Below are positions 1,527 through 14,525 of a stretch of DNA of 64,000 bases, in pieces. The notes beneath the pieces were generated by a model, which searched no databases, was not told the DNA's origin, and worked only from the letters and a program-made list of their open reading frames with translations. Origin of the DNA: a virus (lineage: Duplodnaviria > Caudoviricetes); IMG/VR virus record IMGVR_UViG_3300009370_002257, positions 1 to 64,000 of that record; one strand, given 5' to 3'. The translations under genes and the position numbers were made by a program. Each line of letters begins with the position of its first letter. Position 1 is the first letter of the stretch.

Positions 1527-2066
1527 TTAGCGAAGCTCCTTCCTGAGCAGTCTCCATCTATCGCTATCGATCTTCTTTGCACCGCTATCAATCTGCTGTA
1601 GCATATCTAACACCTCCTCGATAGAGTCGTAAATATAATGATGAGGAAGCATGCCCATCATCCATAAGGGGGTTTTAGTCTTTCCACCCTCCATTGAAAT
1701 AAAGATAGGCTTCTTCATTCTGACTGCGGTAACTATCTCTTCCGCGCTACCCCAGCTTGCAACGTCTGGTAAAAGGTGAGCTATAATAAAGTCAGACCTG
1801 TCTACTAAATTTAAGTCATAGCTCCTAATTAGCTTCATCCTGTTCGCTACGTCGCTGTAGTGACCATTTTCCATATCGTCGGCGATTTTCCCCCTTGTCT
1901 CTTCGCCCTCGTCGACATCTTTAACGAATGGTTTTTTGTATGGGTTAAAAACCGTGATATTCAGCTTGGAAAGCTCTTCCTCGGCATATTCCCTCCAATT
2001 ACGCCCATTGGCGTACTGCATGTGGCCGACCAGATAAGTTTTAGTTTTTTCTAAAAGGTTATTCAT
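1527..2066 (-). CDS. nucleoside 2-deoxyribosyltransferase-like protein
   Basis: TYLVGHM, VFNPY, DLNLVDRSDFIIA and SWGSAEE (catalytic-type Glu) follow the NDT/Rcl family pattern. Confidence 0.7.
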   Translation of the reverse strand: MNNLLEKTKTYLVGHMQYANGRNWREYAEEELSKLNITVFNPYKKPFVKDVDEGEETRGKIADDMENGHYSDVANRMKLIRSYDLNLVDRSDFIIAHLLPDVASWGSAEEIVTAVRMKKPIFISMEGGKTKTPLWMMGMLPHHYIYDSIEEVLDMLQQIDSGAKKIDSDRWRLLRKELR

Positions 2067-2272
2067 ACTTTAGATCTGTAGTATCTGTCCTCTTGTGAGG
2101 CTAATTTCGCAACGTGTTTGGCGAGGCGCTTTTTCTTGTACTTCTTAACGCTGGGCTTCTCATAGAATTGCCTTTCGTAGACATCTTTTAAGGTGCCTTC
2201 TCTGGCTACTTTTTTCTTTAGGACTTTGAGGGCTCTCTCTAGGGAGTTTCCCTTGACTGTTACTTCACTCAT
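2063..2272 (-). CDS. rpsU: ribosomal protein bS21
   Basis: VTVKGNSLERALKVLKKKVAREGTLKDVYERQFYEKPSVKK matches the bS21 pattern; 69 aa, basic. Confidence 0.9.
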   Translation of the reverse strand: MSEVTVKGNSLERALKVLKKKVAREGTLKDVYERQFYEKPSVKKYKKKRLAKHVAKLASQEDRYYRSKV

Positions 2273-2444
2273 ATTTTTTCTTCATCGCGTTATATAGTTT
2301 ATTTCTTATCTTCCTTGTGACAAAAACTGCTGTGGTGTTGTATTTCTTATCGTCGTAATCGCTTGAAGATTTGATTTTATGAATGTACTCTTCTTCAGTC
2401 TCTCGAAGAAGCTCCTGAATCTCTTTGTATGAGAGGTACCACAT
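2265..2444 (-). CDS. hypothetical protein (59 aa, below ORF-track cutoff)
   Basis: Manual translation MWYLSYKEIQELLRETEEEYIHK...NAMKKKYE; overlaps rpsU start; preceded by a GTGTAA motif. Confidence 0.6.
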   Translation of the reverse strand: MWYLSYKEIQELLRETEEEYIHKIKSSSDYDDKKYNTTAVFVTRKIRNKLYNAMKKKYE

Positions 2445-3798: not shown

Positions 3799-4512
3799 TT
3801 ATAAAATATATTTTTGAAATTTTTCAGCCCACAGTTTTTCCAATAGATTCTCCCCGTCTTTGTTTGGTCTATCAAGGTGATATTTATCTTTCTTATCTGC
3901 TAATAGCTCTGGTAGGGCAACTCCGGTTTCGGGGTCTAGTATTTCATTGTTTATTCCGAAGCTTATGTAGTTATTTTCTTTTGCTACCTCGTCAAGTCTA
4001 GAAGTATAAAATAAAGTAAACTCTGTCATCTTTCTCAAGGCTTTGGCTGACCCCGCCGGACCCTCTATGTTCAGTAGCATGTTTGGTTCCGCGCTCTTTG
4101 ATAGGTGCGGGTGAAGTAACGCAATTCTTTCTGGCGGGAACCCTTTAAGGTTCGTTCGTATGAATTTAACCAAATTATTTGCAGACTGCGTTAGTGTTTC
4201 CTTCCAGTTTTTTAATCCTTTCTTGTGGGTTAGGCTCCTGCAGTCTATCTCGCCAAGCATAAAGCAAATAAAGTCCGCCGGTTTTTCTTTTAGGGCTGCG
4301 TGGTATACGGTACGCGGCGAGTTCATGTCTGGGGTTGGCTTGTCTTGTAAGAAATTCAGGAAAAAACTATTAGAATTAGACCTCGAGTCTGGGCTGTTTA
4401 TGCCGTGGGCTGTAGCGGATTGCCGTTTGCACAGCCTGATGTCTACATCGACGCCCGTCATCACTGACACACAGTGCGTATGGGAGTCCCCTAATAAAAG
4501 AGCTTTTTTCAT
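3799..4512 (-). CDS. SGNH/GDSL hydrolase-like protein
   Basis: LLLGDSH block I, GEIDCR block III-like, late D..YH; ATGA overlap with the sigma gene. Confidence 0.65.
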   Translation of the reverse strand: MKKALLLGDSHTHCVSVMTGVDVDIRLCKRQSATAHGINSPDSRSNSNSFFLNFLQDKPTPDMNSPRTVYHAALKEKPADFICFMLGEIDCRSLTHKKGLKNWKETLTQSANNLVKFIRTNLKGFPPERIALLHPHLSKSAEPNMLLNIEGPAGSAKALRKMTEFTLFYTSRLDEVAKENNYISFGINNEILDPETGVALPELLADKKDKYHLDRPNKDGENLLEKLWAEKFQKYIL

Positions 4513-5117
4513 GCCGCATTTTTCGTTTTAGCATTTTTTCTTGCGTAATAAATTCTGGACATCACTGTGCCGAGCGGGATTTGGAGTTGCTTGCTTATCT
4601 CCTCGTAGGTGATGTCATTATCTTCTAATATTAATTTTAAAACATTTTTATGATTTTTTGGTAAAGAGTCTATGGTTTTCTTAACTTTTTTCCTAAACTC
4701 TTCTTGTTCAAGGGGTTCGGTAACTACTTTCCCGCTCGTCGCACCGGTCAACTCTACTATTTGGGGTTTTTGTTGGAAGCCGTCGTCTTTCTCTGTCTGT
4801 GTTAGAGCCTCCCAAGAATACTCTGGTTTATTTTTTCTTTTTCTATATAAATCGAAGAAAGAATTTTTAGCTATCCTAATTGCCCAAGTAGAAAAGGCGG
4901 AGTCCCCTTTAAATTTACCTATATATTTCCAACACTTCAAGAACGTGGTTTGTTTGATATCTTGTGCGTCATGAAAGTTTTGCTTGCAAAGCTGTAAGAT
5001 CGAGGCTGTAATTTTCTCATCGTTGCGAAAGATTAGCTCTTCAAAAGCTAGGGCGTCACCCTTTTTAGACTTTCTTACTAGGGTTATTTCTTTGTATAAG
5101 TTATATGACTTCCTCAT
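4509..5117 (-). CDS. ECF-type RNA polymerase sigma factor
   Basis: GDALAFEEL, DAQDIKQTTFLKCW, FKGDSAFSTWAIRIAKN (region 2); SLP....VLKL....TYEEISKQLQIPLGTVMSRIYYARK (region 4). Confidence 0.92.
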   Translation of the reverse strand: MRKSYNLYKEITLVRKSKKGDALAFEELIFRNDEKITASILQLCKQNFHDAQDIKQTTFLKCWKYIGKFKGDSAFSTWAIRIAKNSFFDLYRKRKNKPEYSWEALTQTEKDDGFQQKPQIVELTGATSGKVVTEPLEQEEFRKKVKKTIDSLPKNHKNVLKLILEDNDITYEEISKQLQIPLGTVMSRIYYARKNAKTKNAA

Positions 5118-6256
5118 TACAAGATGTCCAGCCCGAGCTCCTCTAGTTTGGAGTTGAACTTCTCAAAGGGGATGTCTTTGTAGGTTAGCTTCGAGGGATA
5201 CTTGGTCCAATAATCCCTGTGTTGCTCTCTGTCTCCCTCTAGTTCTCCTTCAGCCATTAAGCTGGCCACGGCAGATATGGGGGAGGAGGTTGCTCTCTGC
5301 ATGGCGCTAAAATCATTTTGGGGGAAAACTACTAGCTCTTTGCTCCATTTGAGTCTTTCTCCTGAAAGCTTTGTTTTCATCAATACCATGTCCTTCGTCA
5401 TTTCTCCCAGCGCGCCATCTGGCTTCCTGCAGCCCCGTTTAAATATTTGTTTTAAGCAGTCATCATTCAACTCTGACTGACGTATTAGGAATTGAACCGC
5501 ATCTCTGTGCCCGATGTATCTGAGGGTTTTATATGAGCAATTCCTGACCCCCCTCTCCTTCATTGAGGCTATAGAGTGTGAAGCGCCGCCGCTAGTATAA
5601 AAGGCTTCAAGCTTTTTATCTAGACTCTTAAAGAAAACTTTTTCATACCCCCTCATACCGGGAAGGGTTAAAATATTACCGCTAGAAAGCACCTCGCAAT
5701 CATCCCTGTATTCATTTATTAAGCCATCTATGGACCAAGTTACTATATAATCTAGGGGGCGATTTACTTCCATTGTCGGAAGCCCGCCCACCATCATTTT
5801 TACATCGTCCACCTTACCGTGCATTTCGCTATAACCCCACTCAGCCATGATGTTGATCCATCCCGGAGCCAACCCCAAGTCTGTCATAACGGGAACTTTA
5901 GCTACTCCTTCTGCATGATTATTAATATTACGCGAAACATCAACTCTTCCACCTAAGTCGCAGTAACGGAATTCATTATCAATGCACCAATACCCAATCA
6001 TTTCTGTTTGGTGGTAGGGAAGGCTGCTGATTACTACGTCCGGCTTTTCTTTAAGAATAAACGTTTCCATCATCTTGTCGGCATTATTTTCGTCTGTCAA
6101 ATAAAACCGACCCGCATCTTCTGGGATATATTTTTTAAAACTAGCGGATGCCCCCTCATAAGAATCCATTCCTATGACATAATACCCCAATTTATTCATG
6201 CACCAAGCTATGGCTTGGCCCATTCTCCCTACGCCTAATACAGCAGCTTTTTTCAT
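5117..6256 (-). CDS. saccharopine-dehydrogenase family protein, most like L-lysine 6-dehydrogenase
   Basis: Rossmann GVGRMG; YCDLGG; DLGLAPGWINI; VGGLP...PLDY..TWSIDGLINEY; LEAFYTSGG; YKTLRYIGH. Confidence 0.85.
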   Translation of the reverse strand: MKKAAVLGVGRMGQAIAWCMNKLGYYVIGMDSYEGASASFKKYIPEDAGRFYLTDENNADKMMETFILKEKPDVVISSLPYHQTEMIGYWCIDNEFRYCDLGGRVDVSRNINNHAEGVAKVPVMTDLGLAPGWINIMAEWGYSEMHGKVDDVKMMVGGLPTMEVNRPLDYIVTWSIDGLINEYRDDCEVLSSGNILTLPGMRGYEKVFFKSLDKKLEAFYTSGGASHSIASMKERGVRNCSYKTLRYIGHRDAVQFLIRQSELNDDCLKQIFKRGCRKPDGALGEMTKDMVLMKTKLSGERLKWSKELVVFPQNDFSAMQRATSSPISAVASLMAEGELEGDREQHRDYWTKYPSKLTYKDIPFEKFNSKLEELGLDIL

Positions 6257-6259
6257 CAC

Positions 6260-6430
6260 TTAAAATATTACGGTTTTTATAAAATTGTTATTAATATCTA
6301 AGATCCACACAATGTCTCCCGCTTTGCAGTTTTTCGTCGGGACTATTTCTAGCTCCCCGTTCTTGTTCTTTATCGCTACGGTTTTATGGGTATGGCATAG
6401 ATATTCTTTTTTTGTCCTTTTGACTTGCAA
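6260..6430 (-). CDS. small hypothetical protein (56 aa, TTG start, not in ORF track)
   Basis: Open frame MQVKRTKKEYLCHTHKTVAIKNKNGELEIVPTKNCKAGDIVWILDINNNFIKTVIF exactly fills the gap between ALDH and the dehydrogenase. Confidence 0.5.
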   Translation of the reverse strand: MQVKRTKKEYLCHTHKTVAIKNKNGELEIVPTKNCKAGDIVWILDINNNFIKTVIF

Positions 6431-7969
6431 TTATTTCATTCCTTGAGGGAAGGTTAGTTCGTCCGCGTGGTTTACTGTCCAGCTAACCTCGTGCGTTACT
6501 GCTCTGAAGGTTCTTGCCGCACTCGGGAATCCGTTTCCGGATTTTTTAACCCCGCCAAACGCAAGGTGAGATTCGGCAGCGATAGAACCGCCGTTCCAGT
6601 AAATCATTCCTGCATCGCATTCATCTCGGAGGATTCGTGCTTTGCGAAAATCATTCGTAAGCACACCCACCGCCAAGCCATAGTCAGTATCGTTATAAAT
6701 ATTAATTCCATCTTCTAAAGTATCGAAAGGTATAATTGCTACGTGCGGCCCAAATACCTCGTCCCTAAGGTAGGGTGCTTGGCTTGCTTCGCGCCACTCA
6801 CTTTTATACACCATAGGGGTTGAATAAAAAGCCCTACCATTTACATCTTCGTATGTGGGCTCTAGTAAGACTTCTGCTTTCGGGTCTGCCAAGACCATGT
6901 CATTATACTCTTTTATTTTATTGAACCCCTGTCGGTTAATGATCGGCCCGTAATAGATATCTTCATCTGGCAGATAATCTTCCCAACAAATGGCATCTGG
7001 GGTTCCTGTCGAGCCGAAAACTTTGCGAAAGGGGTTTCCGGTTTTGAGCTTTGAGGCTTCTTGAGCGAACCTTCTGGCGAACTCGTCATAGATTGTTCTC
7101 TGTACCAACATCCTTCCGGAAGAAACGCAGCGCTGCCCTGAAAGCTTAAAGGCGCTAGCTACTGTGGCTGGCATGGTAAGGCTGTATTCTACATCGTCAA
7201 AAACAATACAGGCAGATTTACTTCCTAGCTCGCAGCTAGTAGTTTTATGCCAAGAGTCTGCAGCAACTCTACGAATATGTTGTCCGACCGCAGCAGAACC
7301 AGTAAAGCAAATATGATCGACACCAGCCCTAACCAGAACATCACCACTAGCCCCATCACCATGCACCAAATTAATGACTCCACGAGGCACGCCAGCTTCC
7401 TCATAGATTCGCACAGCCATTTGAGTTGACATCGGGGCATCTTCACTTGGTTTTATTACAATAGTGTTTCCTTCCACTAGCGCTGGGGCGGCATTCCAAA
7501 ACATCCCGATTGCCAGTGGAAAATTAAAAGGTGTTACAATAGCAATTACACCCTTGGGCTTACGAAGCATGTAGGCATCTTTGTCTGCGATTTCCGAAGA
7601 TACTGCCTCTCCGTGGGCGTACCTGCCCGATCCGAAAGCGAACTGAGCCATATGTAACGCCTCATTGACCTCTGCTATGCTTTCGTTAACGGTCTTGCCT
7701 GTCTCTAGGGAGATTACTTTCGCTAGTTCATCTTTTCTTTCCTCAATTATTTGGGCGACCCTATTTAAGTAGTCGGAGCGGGTGAAGCGGCTTACTTTTT
7801 TCCAAGTTTTAAAAGCTTCTCGCGCGGCGCTAACTGCTCTTAAAATTTCATCGTCTTGGGTAAGGGGGAATGCCCCTAAAGCCTTGCCCGTAGACGGGTT
7901 GAGCTTAGAATACATCGTCTCCGTACTCGTCCATTCCCCGTCTATGTAGTTTCTGCCTTCGTATTGCAT
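6431..7969 (-). CDS. NAD-dependent aldehyde dehydrogenase
   Basis: ITPFNFP, KPSE, FTGSAAVG, ELGSKSA (catalytic Glu), SGQRCVS (catalytic Cys), EVFGP, FGGVKKSGNG; likely start MQYEG at 7969. Confidence 0.95.
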   Translation of the reverse strand: MQYEGRNYIDGEWTSTETMYSKLNPSTGKALGAFPLTQDDEILRAVSAAREAFKTWKKVSRFTRSDYLNRVAQIIEERKDELAKVISLETGKTVNESIAEVNEALHMAQFAFGSGRYAHGEAVSSEIADKDAYMLRKPKGVIAIVTPFNFPLAIGMFWNAAPALVEGNTIVIKPSEDAPMSTQMAVRIYEEAGVPRGVINLVHGDGASGDVLVRAGVDHICFTGSAAVGQHIRRVAADSWHKTTSCELGSKSACIVFDDVEYSLTMPATVASAFKLSGQRCVSSGRMLVQRTIYDEFARRFAQEASKLKTGNPFRKVFGSTGTPDAICWEDYLPDEDIYYGPIINRQGFNKIKEYNDMVLADPKAEVLLEPTYEDVNGRAFYSTPMVYKSEWREASQAPYLRDEVFGPHVAIIPFDTLEDGINIYNDTDYGLAVGVLTNDFRKARILRDECDAGMIYWNGGSIAAESHLAFGGVKKSGNGFPSAARTFRAVTHEVSWTVNHADELTFPQGMK

Positions 7970-7970
7970 C

Positions 7971-8555
7971 TCACTCTCTCTTAATATCATCTTTAGTGCT
8001 TTCCATTAGGGCTTTAACATTCTTTTCGCAGAACCCTTTATTTGCTTGGCTTCTGTTTATTAATTCGTATACCACCCCCGTTAGCTCGGAGGGTTTACTG
8101 AATACTTGCACGAGCTTCGTCTCTTCACACGTTAAGGGTTTTTCTGAGTAAAACTCAACGAACCCTTTATTTTTCCATTCTTCCATTGTTTTTTCCACGT
8201 CGTCAACGTGATAGGCTATGTGGTGGATGCCCCCTACGCCTCCTCGTTCTTCGACCCAGTCACCAACTATTGAGCCTTTCGGCCCGTCGCTAACGAAAAT
8301 CTCGGGAGGTGCGTGGTATGGTATAAAATTTAAGTCACCCGAAGAGCCTTCATCCTTATCGGCTAATAGCACTTCCCACTCTGGAGTAAGTGAGTGTCTT
8401 TCCTCTGGTGGGGCCATCGCTATACACTTAGTCGTGCTGCCGTCATCGAACTCTAGGTCAAATTCAGCACCGATTGAGTAGCCTAAACATTCTTCAAAGA
8501 ATTTAGCAGTCTTATTCCTGTCTGCGCTTCTGTATGCTATATGGTCAAGCCTCAT
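7971..8555 (-). CDS. VOC-fold protein resembling the HPPD catalytic C-terminal domain
   Basis: Likely start MRLDHIAY at 8555; GGIHHIAY; LVQVFS...YELINR...GFCEKNVKALMES parallels HPPD LLQIF...FEFIQR...GFG.GNFKALFES. Confidence 0.8.
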   Translation of the reverse strand: MRLDHIAYRSADRNKTAKFFEECLGYSIGAEFDLEFDDGSTTKCIAMAPPEERHSLTPEWEVLLADKDEGSSGDLNFIPYHAPPEIFVSDGPKGSIVGDWVEERGGVGGIHHIAYHVDDVEKTMEEWKNKGFVEFYSEKPLTCEETKLVQVFSKPSELTGVVYELINRSQANKGFCEKNVKALMESTKDDIKRE

Positions 8556-8743
8556 TCCCCTTCCTCCGCGTGCTCCTTGAAAAAGCAGTCCCCGCTCGGG
8601 GTGGGTGCGCTCGGCATGCCTCCTTCGCCGGTTACGTGACAACACACCTCTCGGACGCACTCGTTTGGTAGCGAGGTGTAAGAATTATTAACCCCCGACG
8701 GGCTAGGTTCCTTCATCAAATTAAATAAGCTTCTAATTCCCAC
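8552..8743 (-). CDS. possible small Cys-containing ORF, or structured leader
   Basis: Stop overlaps the VOC start (ATGA); GC-rich and hairpin-rich, so coding status is uncertain. Confidence 0.35.
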   Translation of the reverse strand: MGIRSLFNLMKEPSPSGVNNSYTSLPNECVREVCCHVTGEGGMPSAPTPSGDCFFKEHAEEGE

Positions 8744-8753
8744 AATTCACCTT

Positions 8754-9335
8754 TCAGCTAAAAAAATTCTGCACTTTCCAAGTTATCCTAACTATAAACC
8801 CTAACGTATACCTTATCAAGCCAAAAATAAGCGCTAAAATGGCATGAATTGGTGTTTTTATCTTTTTTAGTAAGCTTTTCTCATTTTTTTTGGTTTTTGT
8901 TACTAATTTTTCGAGGTCTTTCTGTATTTCTTTTCTCTTTTTATTATCCGCTTTCTCCCACTCTAGTAGCTGGATTTCTTTCATGTCCCCTTTCCAAAAT
9001 AGCCCCTCAAATTCTAAATAAAAATCATATTCTTTATCAAGGTGAAGTATCGAGAAGACTACCGCTCCGGTGTGCTCCTGCCTCTCTATCCCGTCGTAAC
9101 TCTCCACGATGTCAATCGACCCCTTATCGTCTCGCGCGAACTCCTTCTTGATTATTTCTTTGTATAGTTGGCCATCAGAACTGATGGTATATTTCTCGAA
9201 GTCTAGCGGCGGCGAACCAATGAATGAGTATGTATGGAACTCTGCCTCGTCCCAGTCTATCGTAGTGACCATTAACTCAGCCACTTCTTCCGGGATAGGT
9301 AATTCGTATTCGCAAACTAGGTAGTCAGGAGTCAT
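8754..9335 (-). CDS. hypothetical protein
   Basis: 193 aa ORF, co-directional and overlapping its neighbour; hydrophobic C-terminus. Confidence 0.7.
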   Translation of the reverse strand: MTPDYLVCEYELPIPEEVAELMVTTIDWDEAEFHTYSFIGSPPLDFEKYTISSDGQLYKEIIKKEFARDDKGSIDIVESYDGIERQEHTGAVVFSILHLDKEYDFYLEFEGLFWKGDMKEIQLLEWEKADNKKRKEIQKDLEKLVTKTKKNEKSLLKKIKTPIHAILALIFGLIRYTLGFIVRITWKVQNFFS

Positions 9336-9507
9336 TATCTTGGATCATGTCTCTAAGCACTCTCAGGTAAAATAGTACGAAACCGTCACCCTCAGACTTA
9401 CTGGCTTTATTTTTTAATAAATAATACTCCTTGAGTTTCTGGTCGTCTCTTTCCGCCTGCTCAATTATTTGCTCGATAAGGCCTAGGTATTTATCTTTCA
9501 TATCCAT
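9325..9507 (-). CDS. hypothetical protein
   Basis: 60 aa ORF overlapping both neighbours. Confidence 0.6.
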   Translation of the reverse strand: MDMKDKYLGLIEQIIEQAERDDQKLKEYYLLKNKASKSEGDGFVLFYLRVLRDMIQDNDS

Positions 9508-9851
9508 ACCCTGTAGCTATCTGAGTCTTCGTGGAATGTACTGCTTTCAATTATGTCGCAGTCAGTTATTGCAGTTATTTGGTGGGGTACCAGCTTGTTG
9601 ATGATGTAGCAGTCGCCTTCGTATAGCTCCTCTTCTATTTCCGCCGCAGTCTGGGTGTCTAGAGTCTTGAGCCTGCATTTCCCGCTTAAAATATAGAAAG
9701 TTTCGTGTTTTCTTGAGTGAAAATGCATGGAGAAACTGTGACCAGATTTAACATGAAGAATTTTTCCGCAATAGTTATTAGGCTCGTCGTTGGCTAACCA
9801 GAGTTCGTGGCCCCAGTTCTTCTTAACTCTTTTGGGCTGATGTTTCACCAA
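9498..9851 (-). CDS. cupin (mannose-6-phosphate isomerase type II-like)
   Basis: V.K.WGHELW, YCGKIL, SMHFHSRKHETFYILSG, VPHQI, IESST.H...DSYRV. Confidence 0.8.
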   Translation of the reverse strand: MVKHQPKRVKKNWGHELWLANDEPNNYCGKILHVKSGHSFSMHFHSRKHETFYILSGKCRLKTLDTQTAAEIEEELYEGDCYIINKLVPHQITAITDCDIIESSTFHEDSDSYRVWI

Positions 9852-9897
9852 TAAATAATAACCTTATTCTAAAAAACTTCAATCTTATTTTAGAAAA

Positions 9898-9907
9898 GTG
9901 TATATTA
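9898..9907 (+). promoter_or_regulatory. GTGTA-type putative phage promoter motif
   Basis: GTGTATATTA then ATAT then ATG 9912. Confidence 0.4.
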
Positions 9908-9911
9908 ATAT

Positions 9912-10028
9912 ATGCCAAAAAAAGAAAAGCAGCAGTTAAGAACCGTAGTCAAAGTATTATCCGAGCAAAAGTTTCCAGCTTTAGAGAAAATCAAAAAGAA
10001 AATCAGCGCTAAAAAAGTAAGTAAATAG
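9912..10028 (+). CDS. small basic hypothetical protein (38 aa)
   Basis: MPKKEKQQLRTVVKVLSEQKFPALEKIKKKISAKKVSK; fills the gap between cupin and tRNA; motif upstream. Confidence 0.45.
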   Translation: MPKKEKQQLRTVVKVLSEQKFPALEKIKKKISAKKVSK

Positions 10029-10032
10029 AAAT

Positions 10033-10120
10033 TGGTACCGAAGGAGGGACTCGAACCCTCATGGCTTGGCCAGCCGACAGATTTTAAGTCTGTTGTGTAT
10101 ACCAATTCCACCACTTCGGC
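10033..10120 (-). tRNA. tRNA-Leu(TAA)
   Basis: GCCGAAG/CTTCGGT acceptor, GGTGGAATTGGTATACAC D-arm, ACAGA-CTTAAAA-TCTGT anticodon arm, long variable arm, GGTTCGAGTCC T-arm, encoded CCA. Confidence 0.97.
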
Positions 10121-10124
10121 AAAT

Positions 10125-10883
10125 CTAAATGGTGGCGACCCCTCTTTTTTTAACCACCTCGCAGGAGCATTTGTTCGCGAAATCAATCGCATTCTCTACG
10201 CTCGCCCCTTCAGTAATTAAAACCGCCAACGCGGAAAGAAAGGTGTCTCCAGCGCCAGATAAGTCTTGAGCAACTATCTTGTCGGGTGGGGGGTACATCT
10301 TCCCTGCGTACCAGCACCCCTTACTCCCGTGTGTTACTATTATTTTCTCAGTATATCGGTCTGTGGTGGAGGGCCCGTGCCCCAGCGAAAGCCTGAGACC
10401 ACGGTTTAATTCTAGCTCGTACTCATTAAGTTTTATGAACCTCAAATTATTGGGGAGATCGCATGTTAGCTTTCTTTTCGTGTCAAAAAAAACATTATCA
10501 TGCTCTAGGCATATTTTTCTTATGGCTTGATCACATAAGAAGCCTTTATTATAATCTGATACTATAACTGCATCATATTCATCCCATGCAACCTTTTGAA
10601 TATCGAAAGGGTCCGTTACCCTGTCGTCTACGTCTACCCTTAATAATAATTGATTGGTCTTTCTGTCTACGTACCTTATTTTTTCTATTAAGCTTTCGTT
10701 TGTAACGATGTCGCAGCGCACCCCTAGGGCTTCCACGTTAGCCTGTACATTTTTTGCCATGCCGCCATTTGAGGTTGCCCCCGTAGGTTGGAACACTGGA
10801 ACCGGCCCCTCTGGGCAAAGTCTTTCGCATGTGCCGTAAATAAATTTATCGGTACAACTGTCCCCTATCACTAGAAATTTCAT
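10125..10883 (-). CDS. PfkB-family kinase, HldE/RfaE domain I-like
   Basis: LVIGDSCTD.FIYG.CERLCPEGPVPV, GGMAKNVQAN, VSDYNKG, DLSGAGDTF. Confidence 0.88.
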   Translation of the reverse strand: MKFLVIGDSCTDKFIYGTCERLCPEGPVPVFQPTGATSNGGMAKNVQANVEALGVRCDIVTNESLIEKIRYVDRKTNQLLLRVDVDDRVTDPFDIQKVAWDEYDAVIVSDYNKGFLCDQAIRKICLEHDNVFFDTKRKLTCDLPNNLRFIKLNEYELELNRGLRLSLGHGPSTTDRYTEKIIVTHGSKGCWYAGKMYPPPDKIVAQDLSGAGDTFLSALAVLITEGASVENAIDFANKCSCEVVKKRGVATI

Positions 10884-11608
10884 GCGTCAATGATTTTAAG
10901 GGTCTCTTTTGGTGAATTAACTTTATGGCACACTCCGTCTCCGGCATTTTTTATGTCTAGATAAATATCATAATCGTTCCCGCCCTTAGAACAGCTGTCT
11001 CCTAGGAAAATCATCTTACCTCCGAGGTTTTTTCTTATCCATTTACTCGCTTGCGATTTATTGTGACCTTTCGGTTGTATATCTATACTTATCTGCCCGC
11101 CGATCCTGAAATCTAACTCTGGAAAACTCCTTTCTAATTGGCTTACTATGTTTTTTCTTTCTCCATTTTTGACGTCCCACTCATAGTATCTTTGCCTTTC
11201 TTCTGTGTTTGCGTTCCTGCCAATTGTGGTAAAGTTAAGCATCCCCGGTCTGAGCTCTATTATTTTTCCCCGACCACCGAGCTTCGGTCTTGTCGGAAAC
11301 TTTGTGTACATTTGAAAACCGATCAAGCACTCCGTCAGGTGGGGGTCGGGTGCCCATTCGTTTTCGTATATAAGGTTTTTACCGCTCCAAAATTGATTAG
11401 CCATGGAGCAGAACACCCCCTTGCACTCCGCTATTACCTCTGCTGGCACCTGCTCACTAACTTTTTCCAGATTACTGCCTGCAACTAAAAATACAGACTT
11501 ATCCTTCATCCAGCTAAGGAAGGTCTTAGCGAACCCGCTGGACATCTTACTCCTAGGCTCTGTTAGTGTCCCGTCTATATCAAATAGGTAATGTATGGGA
11601 CCTTTCAT
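10880..11608 (-). CDS. phosphomannomutase, eukaryotic-type (HAD IIB)
   Basis: FDIDGTLT, IELRPGMLNFTTIGR, GGQISIDI.PKG.NK, FLGD...GGNDYDI. Confidence 0.9.
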   Translation of the reverse strand: MKGPIHYLFDIDGTLTEPRSKMSSGFAKTFLSWMKDKSVFLVAGSNLEKVSEQVPAEVIAECKGVFCSMANQFWSGKNLIYENEWAPDPHLTECLIGFQMYTKFPTRPKLGGRGKIIELRPGMLNFTTIGRNANTEERQRYYEWDVKNGERKNIVSQLERSFPELDFRIGGQISIDIQPKGHNKSQASKWIRKNLGGKMIFLGDSCSKGGNDYDIYLDIKNAGDGVCHKVNSPKETLKIIDA

Positions 11609-12021
11609 TCTTTAGCGTCCTTAATGTATTCCGATGATGATCTAATTTTCTCACCCAAGCTGTCGACCATCTCAATACCTAGCTCCCTACATATAAGTGA
11701 TTCGGGGATCTCCTCTTGTATTCTGTCTCCGCCGTTGGCAAAAATGTCTGGACTGCAGGCGGCTAAAGATTTACACACAGACGAGTCCTCATCTATCGAT
11801 ATGAAAGCTTGATCCACGCACTGAAGGGACTCGATAATCTTGAGCCTGTCTTCTTGAGTCATAAAGGGTTTCCCCTTTTTTAGAGTCGCCTGTTTGTCGT
11901 TATTTACTATAACAACCAGCCTATCTCCTAACGCTTTCGACTTCTCTAGGTATTCTATGTGACCCACGTGAAGTGGGTCAAAGTACCCGCTCGCGGCGAC
12001 GGTTATTAACTTTGCACTCAT
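11605..12021 (-). CDS. cytidylyltransferase-family (TagD/RfaE II-like) nucleotidyltransferase
   Basis: SGYFDPLHVGHIEYL, VIVNND.Q..LKKG, FANGGDR. Confidence 0.85.
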   Translation of the reverse strand: MSAKLITVAASGYFDPLHVGHIEYLEKSKALGDRLVVIVNNDKQATLKKGKPFMTQEDRLKIIESLQCVDQAFISIDEDSSVCKSLAACSPDIFANGGDRIQEEIPESLICRELGIEMVDSLGEKIRSSSEYIKDAKE

Positions 12022-12274: not shown

Positions 12275-12351
12275 TGGTACTCTGGGTGGGGCTCGAACCC
12301 ACAACCCTCTGCTTAGAAGGCAGATGCTCTATCCAATTGAGCTACCAAAGC
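12275..12351 (-). tRNA. tRNA-Arg(TCT)
   Basis: GCTTTGG/CCAGAGT acceptor, TAGCTCAATTGGATAGAGC D-arm, TCTGC-CTTCTAA-GCAGA anticodon arm, GGTTCGAGCCC T-arm, encoded CCA. Confidence 0.97.
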
Positions 12352-12352: not shown

Positions 12353-13195
12353 TTAAAGAACTGCTCTACCTTTGTCATTTTCCCAATCTTTTTCTGGCCT
12401 GTCGACTTGAATGTTTCTAGCCTTCGCCGCTTCCACTAGGTAACTCTCTTGACCGCATTGGGTCATTTGATCTAGCAAGGAGGCTGTGTCCTTGGGGAAA
12501 CAAGTACCGCCGAAGCCTTTCTTTCCATCTGGCCCGGGCACGGAGGTGTGGTTTATCCCAACCCTCTCGTCTCTGCAGGCAAGCTCTCTCACTTTTCTGT
12601 AATTAATATCATTTATTTCACAAAATTCATACACCTCATTAAAGAATGAGACCTTAACTGCAAGAAAGCAGTTGCGCGTATATTTTGTCAGTTCCGCCTC
12701 TTCGGTTGTAGAGAATGTCATCCTAGGCCGATTCTTAAGTGCTCCGTGGTTCCATGCCGACTCAAACAATTTGTAAACTTCGTCTCTTATCTTATCGTTT
12801 CTAGTGTTTGTTCCGAGTATCCAGTCTTCTTCTTCGGTAAAGTCTTTACGCCAAGATCTTTCCGTTAAAAACTCTGGCATAAACATAACGTTCAGTCTCC
12901 TGCAAGTGCCTACGGGGACTGTGGATTTCACAATCACCCTCCCCTTATCGTAGCCAGCTTCGTGTAATTCATTTACTACCCCATCTACTATAGACGTCGA
13001 ACAGCTTCCGTCTTGGTTCATTGGGGTGGGGACCGCTACGAAAATGAAATCACACGGCATAAGGTCTTTTACGGTTATTCCTAGGGGCTTACATTTTTTG
13101 GGGTCTTTGTCGTAAATGTAAAAAGGGACACCCTCGTGCTCGAGGAGCGATGTGGCTCCACCTACGTACCCATTACCTATCACTCCTACCTGCAT
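12353..13195 (-). CDS. UDP-glucose/GDP-mannose dehydrogenase family (short form)
   Basis: GNGYVG, FVAVPTP, IVKSTVPVG, PEFLTE, AELTKY, GFGGTCFPKD. Confidence 0.88.
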   Translation of the reverse strand: MQVGVIGNGYVGGATSLLEHEGVPFYIYDKDPKKCKPLGITVKDLMPCDFIFVAVPTPMNQDGSCSTSIVDGVVNELHEAGYDKGRVIVKSTVPVGTCRRLNVMFMPEFLTERSWRKDFTEEEDWILGTNTRNDKIRDEVYKLFESAWNHGALKNRPRMTFSTTEEAELTKYTRNCFLAVKVSFFNEVYEFCEINDINYRKVRELACRDERVGINHTSVPGPDGKKGFGGTCFPKDTASLLDQMTQCGQESYLVEAAKARNIQVDRPEKDWENDKGRAVL

Positions 13196-13202
13196 ACAAT
13201 AT

Positions 13203-13231
13203 ATATTAACTGGAAGGCAGCGTTATATCAA
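13203..13231 (-). promoter_or_regulatory. sigma70-type promoter
   Basis: TTGATA-17 nt-TAATAT, then 7 nt to ATG 13195. Confidence 0.7.
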
Positions 13232-13232
13232 T

Positions 13233-13282
13233 AAAAAAAACCCCGCCATGACCGTCCGAATTTAATCGCAATCATGACGGGG
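13233..13282 (-). terminator. intrinsic terminator with 20-nt loop
   Basis: CCCCGTCATGA / TCATGGCGGGG 11-bp stem (one G-U) followed by T8. Confidence 0.75.
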
Positions 13283-13301
13283 GAACCTAGAGAAGATATT
13301 A

Positions 13302-13511
13302 CTACTCTGTGGTTTGTTCCTCCCCGAGGGGAGATTCATCGGCCTCCACCTTAGCCCCTTGAATTTGATCAAGCTGCAGCTGAGTCGATTTGTTCATGCC
13401 TACTAGCACATACCCAGTAAGGGCGAAGTTAATGGCTAAAAGCAGGACCGCAATCCTAGCGTAAGCCGTTTTAACTGTCATTACCTTACTATCTTTATTT
13501 GTTTCTGTCAT
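13302..13511 (-). CDS. hypothetical membrane protein
   Basis: Likely start MTETNK at 13511, downstream of the promoter; one hydrophobic helix. Confidence 0.65.
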   Translation of the reverse strand: MTETNKDSKVMTVKTAYARIAVLLLAINFALTGYVLVGMNKSTQLQLDQIQGAKVEADESPLGEEQTTE

Positions 13512-13519
13512 AAGTCTTA

Positions 13520-13548
13520 ACCTTAGCACATAGTTACTGGGGTGTCAA
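13520..13548 (-). promoter_or_regulatory. sigma70-type promoter with GTAA spacer motif
   Basis: TTGACA-ccccaGTAActatgtgc(17)-TAAGGT. Confidence 0.7.
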
Positions 13549-13551
13549 ATT

Positions 13552-13592
13552 AAAAATAGCCCGCACACGCACGCCGACGATACGGGCTATTT
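13552..13592 (-). terminator. intrinsic terminator after hsp20, 19-nt loop
   Basis: AATAGCCCG / CGGGCTATT inverted repeat followed by a T-run. Confidence 0.7.
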
Positions 13593-13654
13593 ATAGATCG
13601 GGACTTCTCCCAAAGTCCACGCGCTACTATAACGCAGCAATAATATCGACGAAA

Positions 13655-13993
13655 CTATTTAATTTTTAATTCAAAAGATTTCGCAGATTGTTTTTTATTT
13701 ATTTTGATGTTCAACAAGCCATTTTCATACGCCACAGATGCGGTTTTTATATCCGCCTTCTTGGGTAAAAGTAGACTTCTTGAGTATACCCCTCCTTCCT
13801 GCTTTGCACTAACCTTAAGAATGTTATTATCAACAGTAAGGGTAATGTCCTCTTTCTTAAAGCCAGCTAGGTTAAAATCTACCTCGTAATGGGTCTCATG
13901 CTCGTCCCAGTGTGAATCAATTCTTGATTCGTAAGGGTAAACAAAAAAGTCATCTAGTAGTCTGTTCATATTTAATAATGTATTCATATACAA
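13655..13993 (-). CDS. Hsp20 / alpha-crystallin small heat shock protein
   Basis: NLAGFKKEDI.LTV.NNILKV, YSRSLLLP, ASVAYENGLLNI. Confidence 0.92.
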   Translation of the reverse strand: MYMNTLLNMNRLLDDFFVYPYESRIDSHWDEHETHYEVDFNLAGFKKEDITLTVDNNILKVSAKQEGGVYSRSLLLPKKADIKTASVAYENGLLNIKINKKQSAKSFELKIK

Positions 13994-14000
13994 ATACTAA

Positions 14001-14017
14001 AGCATGGATCGTGCCAA
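14001..14017 (-). promoter_or_regulatory. sigma54 (-24/-12) promoter upstream of hsp20
   Basis: TTGGCACGATCCATGCT, i.e. TGGCACG-N4-(A)TGCT with exact GG-N10-GC spacing. Confidence 0.7.
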
Positions 14018-14018
14018 T

Positions 14019-14044
14019 AAAAAAACCCCCCAAAAAGGGGGGTT
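14019..14044 (-). terminator. intrinsic terminator
   Basis: AACCCCCC / GGGGGGTT stem, 5-nt loop, T-run on the minus strand. Confidence 0.75.
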
Positions 14045-14098
14045 AACTATATCTATGAGCCAAGATGACTCTGGTATCCGGTGGTGTTTAGTGTGACA

Positions 14099-14263
14099 TT
14101 ATTTCTCTTGTATCTCTAGGTCTTCTCCGTCTTGCTTTTTCTTTTTGACTAATTCTTCAGCCTGTCTTTTCCCCTCTGATGTATAAGGAAAGGCTCCGTA
14201 TTTATAGCCCCTGTCCTTTGATACTACGAGGTAAAATTTTTTCTGTCTAGGCTTTCTTGGCAT
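14099..14263 (-). CDS. hypothetical protein (54 aa, not in ORF track)
   Basis: MPRKPRQKKFYLVVSKDRGYKYGAFPYTSEGKRQAEELVKKKKQDGEDLEIQEK; overlaps the upstream gene end. Confidence 0.55.
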   Translation of the reverse strand: MPRKPRQKKFYLVVSKDRGYKYGAFPYTSEGKRQAEELVKKKKQDGEDLEIQEK

Positions 14264-14525
14264 ATTGATTACTTATATAATCAATTTTCTCTGCCATTTT
14301 TTCTAATTTTTTCGAATCCGAATCGCTACCTCTTAGTAGGTTTTTAAAGGACTCTTCTAGGAGATTAAATCTTTGTTCTGAAAAGTGCTCTAGGTTCCGG
14401 GTGTTTTTTTCTATCAAATCTAGGTGGGTTTCTATAATGGATCGATTGATCTTTATTCGTTTTATAAGTTGCTTTAGGTCTCGCTCGAGTACTGCCGCCT
14501 CTTTCTTGGGGATGTTTGTGTTCAT
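14247..14525 (-). CDS. hypothetical coiled-coil protein
   Basis: 92 aa ORF with heptad-like Leu pattern. Confidence 0.65.
   Translation of the reverse strand: MNTNIPKKEAAVLERDLKQLIKRIKINRSIIETHLDLIEKNTRNLEHFSEQRFNLLEESFKNLLRGSDSDSKKLEKMAEKIDYISNQYAKKA

What the first reader, a model, noticed from the sequence alone, without database searches (positions are those of the whole stretch)
5117..8555. Apparent lysine-catabolism operon in a phage: lysine 6-dehydrogenase + semialdehyde dehydrogenase + HPPD-type dioxygenase
Seen: three adjacent, co-oriented enzyme genes separated by 1 nt, a 56-aa filler ORF and a TAATG overlap. 5117-6256 carries lysine-6-dehydrogenase-type blocks (VGGLP...PL.Y..TWS..GL..EY, LEAFYTSGG, YKTLRY.GH). 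6431-7969 is an intact ALDH. 7971-8555 looks like an HPPD catalytic domain. Established: lysine 6-dehydrogenase makes 2-aminoadipate semialdehyde, ALDH7-type enzymes oxidise it to 2-aminoadipate, and after transamination the VOC-fold Fe(II) enzyme HglS converts 2-oxoadipate to 2-hydroxyglutarate by HPPD-like chemistry. Inference: this is a virus-borne lysine -> 2-aminoadipate -> (host aminotransferase) -> 2-oxoadipate -> 2-hydroxyglutarate route. I do not know of such a phage auxiliary pathway. It could supply NADH/carbon, drain host lysine, or make a building block for surface or DNA modification. No aminotransferase is visible in the window.
Basis: partly seen in the sequence, partly recalled or inferred. 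Interest (0 to 1): 0.85.

Follow-up and report, generated by a model that had tools for sequence, protein, structure and literature searches.

The report
Phage lysine-breakdown-like three-enzyme module
A large family of uncultured marine phages carries a conserved set of three enzymes that most likely turns lysine into 2-aminoadipate and beyond; no paper in the searched library describes this viral pathway, and it can be tested at the bench.

Summary
On the minus strand lie a 194-aa VOC protein (7971-8555), an intact ALDH (6431-7969), a 56-aa ORF, and a saccharopine-dehydrogenase-family protein (5117-6256) whose stop overlaps an ECF sigma gene as TAATG.

The trio is not a chance neighbourhood. 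Of 63 related viral loci with enough upstream DNA, 60 hold the ALDH and 44 hold VOC plus ALDH. The order VOC>ALDH>dehydrogenase is kept in 46 of 48.

- **Dehydrogenase:** closest to solved lysine 6-dehydrogenase, not to polyamine enzymes.
- **VOC:** a half-size HPPD/hydroxymandelate-synthase catalytic domain (Z 17-18). It has an invariant Arg four residues after the first metal-binding His, the spacing of the HglS arginine that binds 2-oxoadipate.
- **ALDH:** not an ALDH7 member by score, but it keeps ALDH7's Glu121/Arg301 substrate pair.

Independent context support:
- Some phages insert a lysine-6-transaminase-family gene between the ALDH and the dehydrogenase.
- A Chitinophagales chromosome has a VOC homolog, then a bona fide P6C dehydrogenase, then a saccharopine dehydrogenase.

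Lysine to 2-aminoadipate is likely. The VOC step (2-oxoadipate to 2-hydroxyglutarate) is plausible but unproven, and no substrate was tested. First readers of this scan noted the same module in other genomes.

The parts
7971..8555 (-). Single-domain HPPD-like VOC metalloenzyme, 194 aa. Candidate Fe(II) 2-oxoacid dioxygenase/decarboxylase.
   Evidence: Pfam Glyoxalase_4 3e-12. The C-terminal 44 aa match TIGR01263 (HPPD) at 2e-9. The AF2 model has pLDDT 86.7. VIA-align gives HmaS Z 18.1 and 17.3, P. fluorescens HPPD Z 17.1 over chain residues 157-351, MMCE Z 14.7 and rice HglS Z 13.2. H5, R9, H81, E85, H111, H112, Q150, E164 and R168 are invariant in 32 viral or metagenomic homologs and in 37 cellular homologs.
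6431..7969 (-). NAD(P)-dependent aldehyde dehydrogenase, 512 aa (519 aa if the ATG at 7990 is used). Candidate amino-acid omega-semialdehyde dehydrogenase.
   Evidence: Pfam Aldedh 2e-122. No NCBIfam equivalog cut-off is reached; the best is the KGSADH model at 302 bits against 770. Catalytic Cys, Glu and Asn are present, as are the ALDH7-type Glu121/Arg301 pair and the aromatic box. It is 56-83% identical across 69 viral loci.
6260..6430 (-). 56-aa ORF with a TTG start, filling the ALDH-dehydrogenase gap exactly. Function unknown.
   Evidence: There are tblastn matches of 45-58% identity in L018, L019, L050, L055, L059 and L060, two of them directly upstream of the dehydrogenase gene. No Pfam or NCBIfam hit.
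5117..6256 (-). Lysine-6-dehydrogenase-like NAD(P) amine dehydrogenase of the saccharopine dehydrogenase family, 379 aa.
   Evidence: Pfam Sacchrp_dh_C 3e-25 and Sacchrp_dh_NADP 3e-5. A profile of 30 homologs scores LysDH 3abi at 3e-28, the AASS SDH domain at 2e-15, saccharopine reductase at 2e-11, CASDH at 0.08, and does not list HSS. Structural neighbours of the Atlas's own model of this protein include a 'Lysine 6-dehydrogenase' cluster at TM 0.85. The N-terminal GVGRMG motif is present.
4509..5117 (-). ECF-type sigma factor whose start overlaps the dehydrogenase stop. Same transcription unit, but probably not part of the chemistry.
   Evidence: TAATG overlap. Pfam Sigma70_r2 and r4, and TIGR02937 at 92 bits. 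A sigma-like gene lies downstream of the dehydrogenase gene in nine loci in all, directly downstream in several of them (L013, L024, L035).

Best explanation
This is a phage auxiliary metabolic module for breaking down a basic amino acid, most likely lysine.

Step 1 (inferred from family): the LysDH-like enzyme oxidises the epsilon-amine of lysine with NAD(P)+. The products are 2-aminoadipate 6-semialdehyde (in equilibrium with P6C) and ammonia.

Step 2 (inferred from family, from retained substrate-pair residues and from context): the ALDH oxidises the semialdehyde to 2-aminoadipate.

Step 3 (no gene found among the window ORFs examined; assumed to be a host transaminase): 2-aminoadipate is converted to 2-oxoadipate.

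Step 4 (the weakest inference): the half-size HPPD-like VOC enzyme binds Fe(II) through His5, His112 and Glu164. It anchors the distal carboxylate with Arg9. With O2 it decarboxylates and hydroxylates 2-oxoadipate to 2-hydroxyglutarate. It would thus be a non-DUF1338 analog of HglS.

The net effect would be to release lysine nitrogen as ammonia and glutamate, together with reducing power and carbon, during infection.

What is shown: the gene anatomy, the family and fold assignments, the conservation of the module, and the contexts. What is inferred: every substrate and product.
For: Module conservation:
- Of 63 viral loci with at least 8 kb upstream, 60 hold the ALDH and 44 hold VOC plus ALDH.
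- The order VOC>ALDH>dehydrogenase on one strand is kept in 46 of 48. VOC and ALDH are adjacent in 46 of 48.
- The flanking and intervening genes differ widely between loci.

Dehydrogenase: LysDH 3abi is by far the best solved relative (3e-28). CASDH scores 0.08 and HSS is not listed.

ALDH: it keeps Glu121 and Arg301, which ion-pair with the amino and carboxyl groups of aminoadipate semialdehyde in ALDH7 (PMC11362210). It also keeps Phe168, Trp175, Phe468 and a C-terminal QG[I/M]K shared with a true P6C dehydrogenase.

Four different makers of an omega-semialdehyde stand with the ALDH, in most cases with the VOC gene too:
- the LysDH-like gene (most phages);
- a transaminase scoring 465 bits on TIGR03251, L-lysine 6-transaminase, with the next family at 204 bits (5 phage loci);
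- an AASS-type saccharopine dehydrogenase (5l78, 3e-67) in Chitinophagales loci L096 and L097. There the VOC homolog (55% identical) is followed directly by an ALDH scoring 767 bits on NF050084, P6C dehydrogenase, cut-off 730;
- a class-III transaminase in L088.

VOC:
- HmaS and HPPD catalytic domains are the best structural matches (Z 17-18), including the C-terminal helix. HglS is also matched, at Z 13.2 over 162 residues.
- The invariant Arg9 lies at His+4, as Arg74 does relative to His70 in HglS, where it binds the distal carboxylate of 2-oxoadipate (PMC7286885).
- E. coli YdcJ reads H-G-A-I-R at the matching place. Methylmalonyl-CoA epimerases have Ala there.
Against: - No assay was done. 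Identity to the solved LysDH is low (sequence match 1e-14 for the single protein; identity was not computed), and I could not read that structure's paper to map its lysine-binding residues.
- The ALDH is not an ALDH7 member: NF050084 gives 260 bits against 730. Its best family scores go to 2-oxoglutarate-semialdehyde, betaine-aldehyde and aminobutyraldehyde dehydrogenases, all far below their cut-offs. Thr303 is replaced by Val.
- The VOC protein is not DUF1338. It matches methylmalonyl-CoA epimerase slightly better than HPPD by sequence.
- An invariant Glu85 could be a fourth metal ligand. That would favour isomerase rather than oxygenase chemistry. I could not inspect model coordinates.
- VOC is missing from about 30% of the loci that keep ALDH plus dehydrogenase. 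In most cellular genomes it stands alone with no conserved neighbours.
- No class-III aminotransferase is in the window. None was found among the other ORFs scanned.
- The phage loci are related, so part of the co-occurrence is inherited synteny.
- The bacterial VOC-P6CDH-SDH cluster comes from one lineage (L096, L097).
Confidence: 0.5

Rival explanations
1. The chemistry is the same, but the substrate is ornithine or arginine. The dehydrogenase, or in variant phages the class-III transaminase, makes glutamate 5-semialdehyde from ornithine, and the ALDH makes glutamate. The VOC enzyme then acts on another dicarboxylic 2-oxoacid such as 2-oxoglutarate.
For: Variant phage loci carry an arginine-dihydrolase-like gene (NF052232, 219 bits) next to the transaminase, and that enzyme would supply ornithine. 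A basic residue before the catalytic Cys, together with the Glu, is also the recognition pair of the glutamate-semialdehyde enzyme ALDH4A1 (PMC13162559). The ALDH scores 275 bits on the L-glutamate gamma-semialdehyde dehydrogenase model.
Against: No ornithine delta-dehydrogenase of this family is known to me. The transaminase fits the lysine-6-transaminase model far better than the ornithine models (465 against 150-159 bits). The bacterial VOC cluster holds lysine-pathway enzymes. The arginine-dihydrolase-like gene is present in only 5 of 83 loci.
Confidence: 0.15
2. Polyamine or diamine catabolism or remodelling. The dehydrogenase oxidises putrescine, cadaverine, 1,3-diaminopropane or spermidine to an aminoaldehyde. 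The ALDH then makes GABA, 5-aminovalerate or beta-alanine.
For: The enzyme family includes the polyamine enzymes CASDH and HSS, and phages are known to carry polyamine genes (PMC9992855). The ALDH scores 292 bits on the aminobutyraldehyde dehydrogenase model. The same phage encodes a histidine-decarboxylase-like PLP enzyme outside the window.
Against: The profile matches CASDH only at E 0.08, within the Rossmann part, and does not list HSS. The ALDH keeps the Glu/Arg pair that recognises an alpha-amino acid end. The context enzymes are lysine-pathway types. The small gene upstream of the dehydrogenase in many loci is an HAD-type phosphatase (DxDxT motif), not the SpeD that other first readers suggested.
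Confidence: 0.12
3. The trio makes or tailors a building block, for instance 2-aminoadipate, pipecolate or an amino-acid-decorated sugar acid. The product would go into the glycans that this phage's many sugar-nucleotide enzymes and glycosyltransferases build. The module would then not be for catabolism.
For: In the window the module lies directly downstream of heptose-type and other sugar genes: a cupin, a PfkB/HldE-like kinase, a PMM-like protein and a cytidylyltransferase-like protein. Glycosyltransferases and sugar-nucleotide genes fill much of the window. An HAD phosphatase and GDP-mannose dehydratases are frequent neighbours elsewhere.
Against: In many other loci the neighbours are replication genes, not sugar genes. 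No ligase or transferase is consistently linked to the trio. The bacterial cluster looks catabolic.
Confidence: 0.08
4. The dehydrogenase and ALDH work as proposed, but the VOC protein is not an oxygenase. It would be a metal-dependent isomerase, epimerase or glyoxalase-like enzyme, for instance one that handles a reactive aldehyde or imine side product or a CoA ester.
For: By sequence, methylmalonyl-CoA epimerase is the top solved match (6e-11), and it scores Z 14.7. An invariant Glu85 could serve as a fourth ligand, as in glyoxalase I. Aminoadipate semialdehyde/P6C is reactive and toxic (PMC7253579).
Against: HmaS and HPPD score higher structurally (Z 17-18 against 14.7), and only they share the C-terminal helix motif. 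The His+4 Arg matches the HglS substrate-binding arginine, whereas the epimerases have Ala there.
Confidence: 0.15

Closest known systems
Bacterial lysine 6-dehydrogenase plus aminoadipate-semialdehyde (P6C) dehydrogenase route to 2-aminoadipate (Neshich et al. 2013, as cited in PMC7253579; solved LysDH PH1688, PDB 3abi)
   Same: Same two enzyme superfamilies in one transcription direction. LysDH is the best solved relative of the phage dehydrogenase. The ALDH keeps the ALDH7 Glu/Arg substrate pair.
   Different: The genes are carried by phages. The match to the solved LysDH is distant. The ALDH is a distinct, highly conserved viral clade that fails the P6C dehydrogenase equivalog score. A third gene, the VOC, is attached.
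HglS / DUF1338 2-oxoadipate dioxygenase-decarboxylase of P. putida, E. coli (YdcJ) and plants (PMC7286885)
   Same: VOC-type barrel, a His/His/Glu pattern, an Arg four residues after the first His, and genomic association with lysine-catabolic enzymes. Structural match Z 13.2 over 162 residues to rice HglS.
   Different: No detectable sequence homology. Under half the size of YdcJ, the one HglS homolog measured here (194 against 447 aa). It carries the HPPD C-terminal helix motif. Its activity is untested.
4-hydroxyphenylpyruvate dioxygenase and hydroxymandelate synthase
   Same: The best structural matches (Z 16.6-18.1), covering the whole catalytic C-terminal domain and its terminal helix. 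Shared sequence motifs around the second His, the Glu and the C-terminus.
   Different: It has only one of the two VOC domains. TIGR01263 scores 37 bits against a cut-off of 277. The Arg at His+4 suggests an acidic rather than an aromatic substrate tail.
Chitinophagales/Bacteroidota gene cluster found here (L096, L097): VOC homolog, P6C dehydrogenase, saccharopine dehydrogenase
   Same: The same three protein families in the same order. The VOC is 55% identical to the phage protein.
   Different: The ALDH is a true ALDH7-type enzyme (767 bits), only 27% identical to the phage ALDH. The dehydrogenase is the 445-aa AASS/LYS9 type (5l78, 3e-67), not the LysDH type. This VOC is rare in cells: only the centre genome had it among 301 Bacteroidota genomes sampled.
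Virus-encoded polyamine enzymes, for example homospermidine synthase of Ralstonia phage RSL1 and chloroviruses (PMC9992855)
   Same: A viral gene from the same broad dehydrogenase superfamily.
   Different: The phage protein here shows no profile match to HSS and only a marginal Rossmann-region match to CASDH. That survey mentions lysine 6-dehydrogenase only as a relative of HSS.

Membership tests
L-lysine 6-dehydrogenase (saccharopine dehydrogenase superfamily) | Sacchrp_dh_NADP plus Sacchrp_dh_C architecture, about 365-385 aa, N-terminal GxGxxG | tested here: met
   Pfam PF03435 3e-5 and PF16653 3e-25. 379 aa with GVGRMG at residues 9-14.
L-lysine 6-dehydrogenase (saccharopine dehydrogenase superfamily) | Closer to characterised LysDH than to saccharopine reductase, CASDH or HSS | tested here: met
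   Profile A1 scores 3abi at 3e-28, AASS at 2e-15, saccharopine reductases at 5e-12 and 2e-11, CASDH 8deb at 0.08, and does not list HSS.
L-lysine 6-dehydrogenase (saccharopine dehydrogenase superfamily) | Lysine-binding residues of the solved enzyme | not tested
   The structure paper (PMC2832993) is not held, so the residues could not be mapped.
L-lysine 6-dehydrogenase (saccharopine dehydrogenase superfamily) | Oxidative deamination of the lysine epsilon-amine | not testable with these tools
   Needs an enzyme assay.
ALDH7 / L-piperideine-6-carboxylate (aminoadipate semialdehyde) dehydrogenase | Score above the NCBIfam NF050084 equivalog cut-off (730 bits) | tested here: not met
   259.8 bits, and several other ALDH models score higher. 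The neighbour of the VOC homolog in L097 scores 766.6 bits.
ALDH7 / L-piperideine-6-carboxylate (aminoadipate semialdehyde) dehydrogenase | Glu121 and Arg301, which ion-pair with the substrate amino and carboxyl groups; aromatic box Phe168, Trp175, Phe468 (PMC11362210) | tested here: met
   All are conserved in ten phage-type ALDHs aligned with the L097 P6C dehydrogenase. The aromatic box is not specific to ALDH7 (my own knowledge).
ALDH7 / L-piperideine-6-carboxylate (aminoadipate semialdehyde) dehydrogenase | Thr303 after the catalytic Cys | tested here: not met
   Val in all ten phage-type sequences.
ALDH superfamily, catalytically competent | Catalytic Cys302, general base Glu268, oxyanion Asn167 | tested here: met
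   Invariant columns in alignment A3.
HPPD / hydroxymandelate synthase (two-substrate alpha-ketoacid oxygenases) | Two tandem VOC domains, about 350-400 aa; TIGR01263 cut-off 277 bits | tested here: not met
   194 aa, one domain. 37.4 bits, with only the last 44 residues matched.
HPPD / hydroxymandelate synthase (two-substrate alpha-ketoacid oxygenases) | Catalytic-domain fold with the C-terminal helix | tested here: met
   3zgj Z 18.1, 2r5v Z 17.3, and 1cjx Z 17.1 over chain residues 157-351. The model has pLDDT 86.7.
HPPD / hydroxymandelate synthase (two-substrate alpha-ketoacid oxygenases) | His/His/Glu facial triad | tested here: inconclusive
   His5, His112 and Glu164 are invariant and align with the metal ligands of the epimerases and HPPD. 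The geometry was not inspected, and the invariant Glu85 could add a fourth ligand.
HglS / DUF1338 (PF07063) | Sequence membership in PF07063 | tested here: not met
   No Pfam hit. hhalign of profile A2 against E. coli YdcJ gives probability 1.3%.
HglS / DUF1338 (PF07063) | Specificity arginine four residues after the first metal-binding His (His70/Arg74; PMC7286885) | tested here: met
   His5/Arg9 are invariant in 32 viral or metagenomic and 37 cellular homologs. YdcJ reads HGAIR. The VIA alignment starts at model residue 1 and chain residue 56 of rice HglS, which places Arg9 on Arg64 if that strand is ungapped.
HglS / DUF1338 (PF07063) | Conversion of 2-oxoadipate to 2-hydroxyglutarate with Fe(II) and O2 | not testable with these tools
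   Needs an enzyme assay.
Carboxy(nor)spermidine dehydrogenase / homospermidine synthase | Sequence similarity over the catalytic domain | tested here: not met
   CASDH 8deb scores E 0.08 and matches only profile positions 2-100. No HSS chain is listed at E up to 10. The CASDH His-Glu-Glu triad was not mapped.
Phage auxiliary metabolic gene | Carried on a viral genome | tested here: met
   Phage replication and nucleotide genes are in the window. Eighty IMG/VR loci were fetched. Terminase_6N is present in 4 of 4 related near-complete records. No terminase or capsid gene was found among the window ORFs I scanned.

The most novel reading that the evidence does not exclude
The 194-aa protein founds a new family of half-size HPPD-type oxygenases. 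The family has reached, independently or from deep common ancestry, the HglS solution (His/His/Glu plus an Arg at His+4) for dicarboxylic 2-oxoacids. Together with the LysDH-like enzyme and the ALDH it would give marine phages a lysine to 2-aminoadipate to 2-oxoadipate to 2-hydroxyglutarate route of their own. That route would mine nitrogen, carbon and reducing power from the host's lysine during infection. Some relatives extend the same logic to arginine through an arginine dihydrolase.
Probability: 0.3. Interest if true: 0.8.

Novelty: new variant of a known kind. Interest (0 to 1): 0.66.

Why it matters
Known phage auxiliary genes cover photosynthesis, nucleotides, sulfur, phosphate and polyamines. 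I found no published description of a multi-step amino-acid catabolic route carried by phages.

This module is common:
- 685 dehydrogenase relatives and 1,247 VOC relatives were found among 90%-identity protein clusters.
- More than 4,600 ALDH relatives were found, although that count is not restricted to the viral clade.
- Almost all are unnamed, many of them from marine metagenomes.

If the reading holds, these phages redirect a nitrogen-rich host amino acid towards ammonia, glutamate and 2-oxoglutarate. That bears on how infection reshapes nitrogen flow in nutrient-poor seas.

It would also assign a function to a new minimal HPPD-type enzyme family. It would give a second, unrelated enzyme for the 2-oxoadipate step that was only recently solved in bacteria and plants.

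All three proteins are small, soluble-looking and easy to assay.

Tried and rejected
- **Cultured phages:** no record holds the dehydrogenase (tblastn on 50,697 phage records; one 27%-identical hit in an uncultured huge phage), and PHROGs has no family for it. The VOC protein has 49-54% identical matches only in two uncultured huge phages.
- **Riboswitch:** I looked upstream of the VOC gene (8300-9000). There is no Rfam match at E up to 10, and the fold is no better than shuffles (z 0.95).
- **Promoter and terminator scans:** counts are at shuffle level.
- **SpeD idea:** other first readers called a gene next to the dehydrogenase SpeD- or AdoMetDC-like. In my loci the recurrent roughly 137-aa gene there has a DxDxT HAD motif and HAD-like Atlas neighbours. 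It has no Pfam hit and is absent from this window.
- **Cellular context of the VOC gene:** 40 genome loci were checked. There are no conserved neighbours except in L088, L096 and L097.
- **Distant dehydrogenase relatives (35-38% identity):** the three contexts I looked up all lie on phage-like contigs, some without an ALDH nearby, and carry almost no names.
- **Own genome:** none is held.
- **LysDH structure paper:** not held.
- **Literature:** nine searches found no description of this viral module (among them). Absence from the held library does not prove that nothing has been published.

Full report
**Observation.** The three genes lie on the minus strand exactly as described.
- The VOC gene (8555-7971) ends in TGA. 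One base follows, then the ALDH ATG at 7969.
- The ALDH stop is followed at once by the TTG of a 56-aa ORF.
- That ORF's stop is followed at once by GTG-ATG of the dehydrogenase.
- The dehydrogenase stop overlaps the ATG of an ECF sigma gene as TAATG.
- Pfam assigns Sacchrp_dh_C/Sacchrp_dh_NADP, Aldedh and Glyoxalase_4.
- The last 44 residues of the VOC protein match the C-terminus of the HPPD model TIGR01263 at 2e-9.

**Is it viral?**
- The window holds ribonucleotide reductase, a DnaE-type polymerase, DnaB, a UvsX-like recombinase, primase, many sugar-nucleotide enzymes and two tRNAs.
- No whole genome is held.
- Identical copies of the region occur on several marine metagenome contigs.
- A profile of the dehydrogenase matched 96 IMG/VR stretches, of which 80 loci were kept.
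- Four related records of 158-178 kb, rated 91-100% complete, each hold a Terminase_6N match.
- Related loci carry rIIB, T4-type endonuclease V and PhoH.
- The Atlas labels the nearest clusters 65-95% Viruses.
- I saw no capsid or terminase gene among the window ORFs I scanned. The viral call therefore rests on gene content and on synteny with near-complete viral records.

**Is the trio a unit?**
- I ran tblastn of the window proteins on 83 related loci.
- Among the 63 loci with at least 8 kb upstream, the ALDH is present in 60, and VOC plus ALDH in 44.
- The order VOC>ALDH>dehydrogenase on one strand holds in 46 of 48. VOC and ALDH are adjacent in 46 of 48.
- The ALDH-dehydrogenase gap varies up to 5.7 kb, and in a few loci the order is reversed.
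- The intervening and flanking genes differ widely: ClpP, an HAD phosphatase, MotA-like, SET-domain and replication genes, GDP-mannose dehydratase, sigma factors.
- The link has therefore survived much rearrangement.
- The ALDH is unusually conserved (median 75% identity). The VOC protein has a median of 60% and the dehydrogenase 49%.
- The core pair is ALDH plus dehydrogenase. VOC is a frequent third member.

**The dehydrogenase.**
- A profile of 30 homologs hits the solved L-lysine 6-dehydrogenase PH1688 (3abi) at 3e-28 over nearly its full length.
- It hits the saccharopine dehydrogenase domain of human AASS at 2e-15 and saccharopine reductases at about 1e-11.
- It hits carboxyspermidine dehydrogenase only at 0.08, within the Rossmann part. 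No homospermidine synthase is listed.
- Paper PMC10413350 confirms that 3abi is LysDH and that CASDH has its own catalytic triad.
- NCBIfam has no matching model, and PHROGs has no family.
- Orthology with LysDH remains a distant inference.

**The ALDH.**
- It is intact: catalytic Cys, Glu and Asn are present.
- It reaches no NCBIfam equivalog cut-off. The P6C dehydrogenase model gives 260 bits against 730, and several other models score higher. It is not an ALDH7 member.
- I aligned it with a true P6C dehydrogenase from L097. It keeps Glu121 and Arg301, the residues that ion-pair with the amino and carboxyl groups of aminoadipate semialdehyde in ALDH7 (PMC11362210).
- Their counterparts in the glutamate-semialdehyde enzyme ALDH4A1 are Glu165 and Lys347 (PMC13162559).
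- It also keeps the aromatic box and a C-terminal QG[I/M]K. Thr303 is replaced by Val.
- This fits an L-amino-acid omega-semialdehyde as substrate. It does not settle the chain length.

**The VOC protein.**
- An AlphaFold model built from 32 homologs has pLDDT 86.7.
- VIA-align ranks hydroxymandelate synthases (Z 18.1 and 17.3), P. fluorescens HPPD (Z 17.1, chain residues 157-351: the catalytic domain with its terminal helix) and human HPPD (16.6) first.
- Methylmalonyl-CoA epimerase follows at 14.7. Rice hydroxyglutarate synthase bound to 2-oxoadipate scores 13.2 over 162 residues.
- By sequence it lies between the epimerases (6e-11) and the HPPDs (2e-8).
- His5, His112 and Glu164 are invariant, and so is Arg9.
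- In HglS the metal ligands are His70, His226 and Glu294. Arg74, four residues after the first His, binds the distal carboxylate of 2-oxoadipate and sets specificity (PMC7286885).
- E. coli YdcJ reads H-G-A-I-R at that site. The phage protein reads H-I-A-Y-R. The epimerases have Ala at His+4.
- The protein is nevertheless not DUF1338. There is no Pfam hit, and hhalign gives probability 1.3% against YdcJ.
- It is best described as a half-size HPPD-type domain with an HglS-like carboxylate anchor.
- An invariant Glu85 might be a fourth ligand. I could not check the geometry.

**Independent context.**
1. In five phage loci (L068, L073, L074, L077, L078) two genes sit between the ALDH and the dehydrogenase. 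One is arginine-dihydrolase-like (219 bits). The other is a class-III transaminase that scores 465 bits on the L-lysine 6-transaminase model, cut-off 521, with the next family at 204 bits.
2. A pattern scan of species genomes found 40 cellular VOC loci at 44-67% identity, mostly without conserved neighbours.
3. In two Bacteroidota loci (L096, L097, a Chitinophagales chromosome) the VOC gene is followed directly by an ALDH that passes the P6C dehydrogenase equivalog cut-off (767 against 730). Next comes a 445-aa saccharopine dehydrogenase of the AASS type (5l78, 3e-67).
4. In L088 the VOC gene is followed by an ALDH 45% identical to the phage ALDH, and then by a class-III transaminase.
5. Four different enzymes that make an omega-semialdehyde thus accompany the ALDH, usually together with the VOC gene.
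6. Three of them are lysine-pathway types by family score: the LysDH-like enzyme, the lysine-6-transaminase family and saccharopine dehydrogenase.
7. This VOC is rare in cells: only the centre genome had it among 301 Bacteroidota genomes sampled.

**Mechanism proposed.**
- Lysine goes to aminoadipate semialdehyde/P6C plus ammonia (LysDH-like enzyme).
- The semialdehyde goes to 2-aminoadipate (ALDH).
- A host transaminase makes 2-oxoadipate.
- The VOC enzyme makes 2-hydroxyglutarate plus CO2.
- The first two steps are well supported by family, residues and context, and I put them at about 0.6. The VOC step is an inference at about 0.3.
- No class-III transaminase is in the window, and none appeared among the ORFs scanned.
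- Rivals are an ornithine/arginine version of the same chemistry, diamine catabolism, supply of a building block to the phage's large glycan machinery, and a non-oxygenase role for the VOC protein.

**Known or new?**
- The LysDH plus ALDH route and the HglS step are known in bacteria and plants (PMC7253579, PMC7286885).
- I found no paper that describes this viral module.
- The survey of viral polyamine enzymes mentions LysDH only as a relative of HSS.
- First readers of this scan noted the same trio in several other genomes. Those notes are unchecked and are not independent evidence.
- I class it as a new variant of a known kind: a known pathway logic on a virus, with a diverged ALDH and a new half-size HPPD-type enzyme in place of HglS.

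Noticed in passing
window 9498-12021 (-), tRNAs at 10033-10120 and 12275-12351: Directly upstream of the module lies a sugar-nucleotide set. It holds a cupin, a PfkB kinase like HldE domain I (TIGR02198, 116 bits), a eukaryotic-type PMM-like HAD protein and an RfaE-domain-II-like adenylyltransferase. This suggests heptose activation. tRNA-Leu(TAA) and tRNA-Arg(TCT) are interleaved.
   Followed up: partly
window 8552-8743 (-): A GC-rich stretch of about 200 nt lies upstream of the VOC gene. It holds a small ORF of 54-63 aa whose stop overlaps the VOC start. It has no Rfam match and no significant fold.
   Followed up: partly
L068, L073, L074, L077, L078 (for example L074:4553-6540): Some related phages carry an arginine-dihydrolase-like gene (NF052232, 219 bits) and a lysine-6-transaminase-family gene between the ALDH and the dehydrogenase. 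This points to wider breakdown of basic amino acids.
   Followed up: partly
L001:9366-9575, 13077-14444 and 15675-16521 (the same phage; the first lies at about window 2066-2275, the others beyond the window): The phage encodes a ribosomal protein S21 homolog, a Cas12f/TnpB-like protein and a histidine-decarboxylase-like PLP enzyme (NF002748, 406 bits, above the cut-off of 305).
   Followed up: no
window 20375-21184 (-), 14886-15749 (-), 18453-19379 (-): A ferrochelatase-like protein (phrog_2954, 2e-38), a 2OG-Fe(II) oxygenase-like protein and a trypsin-like peptidase lie in the same minus-strand block.
   Followed up: no
L087:8784-10001; also L064, L066, L069, L079, L081: An actin-like 'Volactin' protein (PF25216, 250 bits) lies upstream of the dehydrogenase gene, directly so in L066, L069 and L087. 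A class-I fructose-bisphosphate aldolase lies nearby in L064, L079, L081 and L085.
   Followed up: no
for example L034:9588-10001, in 41 related loci; absent from the window: A protein of about 137 aa with an HAD-type DxDxT motif usually lies just upstream of the dehydrogenase gene. Its Atlas neighbours are HAD-like capsule-biosynthesis phosphatases. Whether it takes part in the module is unknown.
   Followed up: partly
LR756511.1 at 195363-195944 and 319896-319978; LR756504.1 at 487318-487875 and 394110-394835: Two uncultured 'huge phage' genomes of about 0.6 Mb hold VOC homologs (54% and 49% identity). One also has a short DNA match to the ALDH gene, and the other a distant dehydrogenase relative (27.5% identity). 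In both, the matches lie about 100 kb apart.
   Followed up: no
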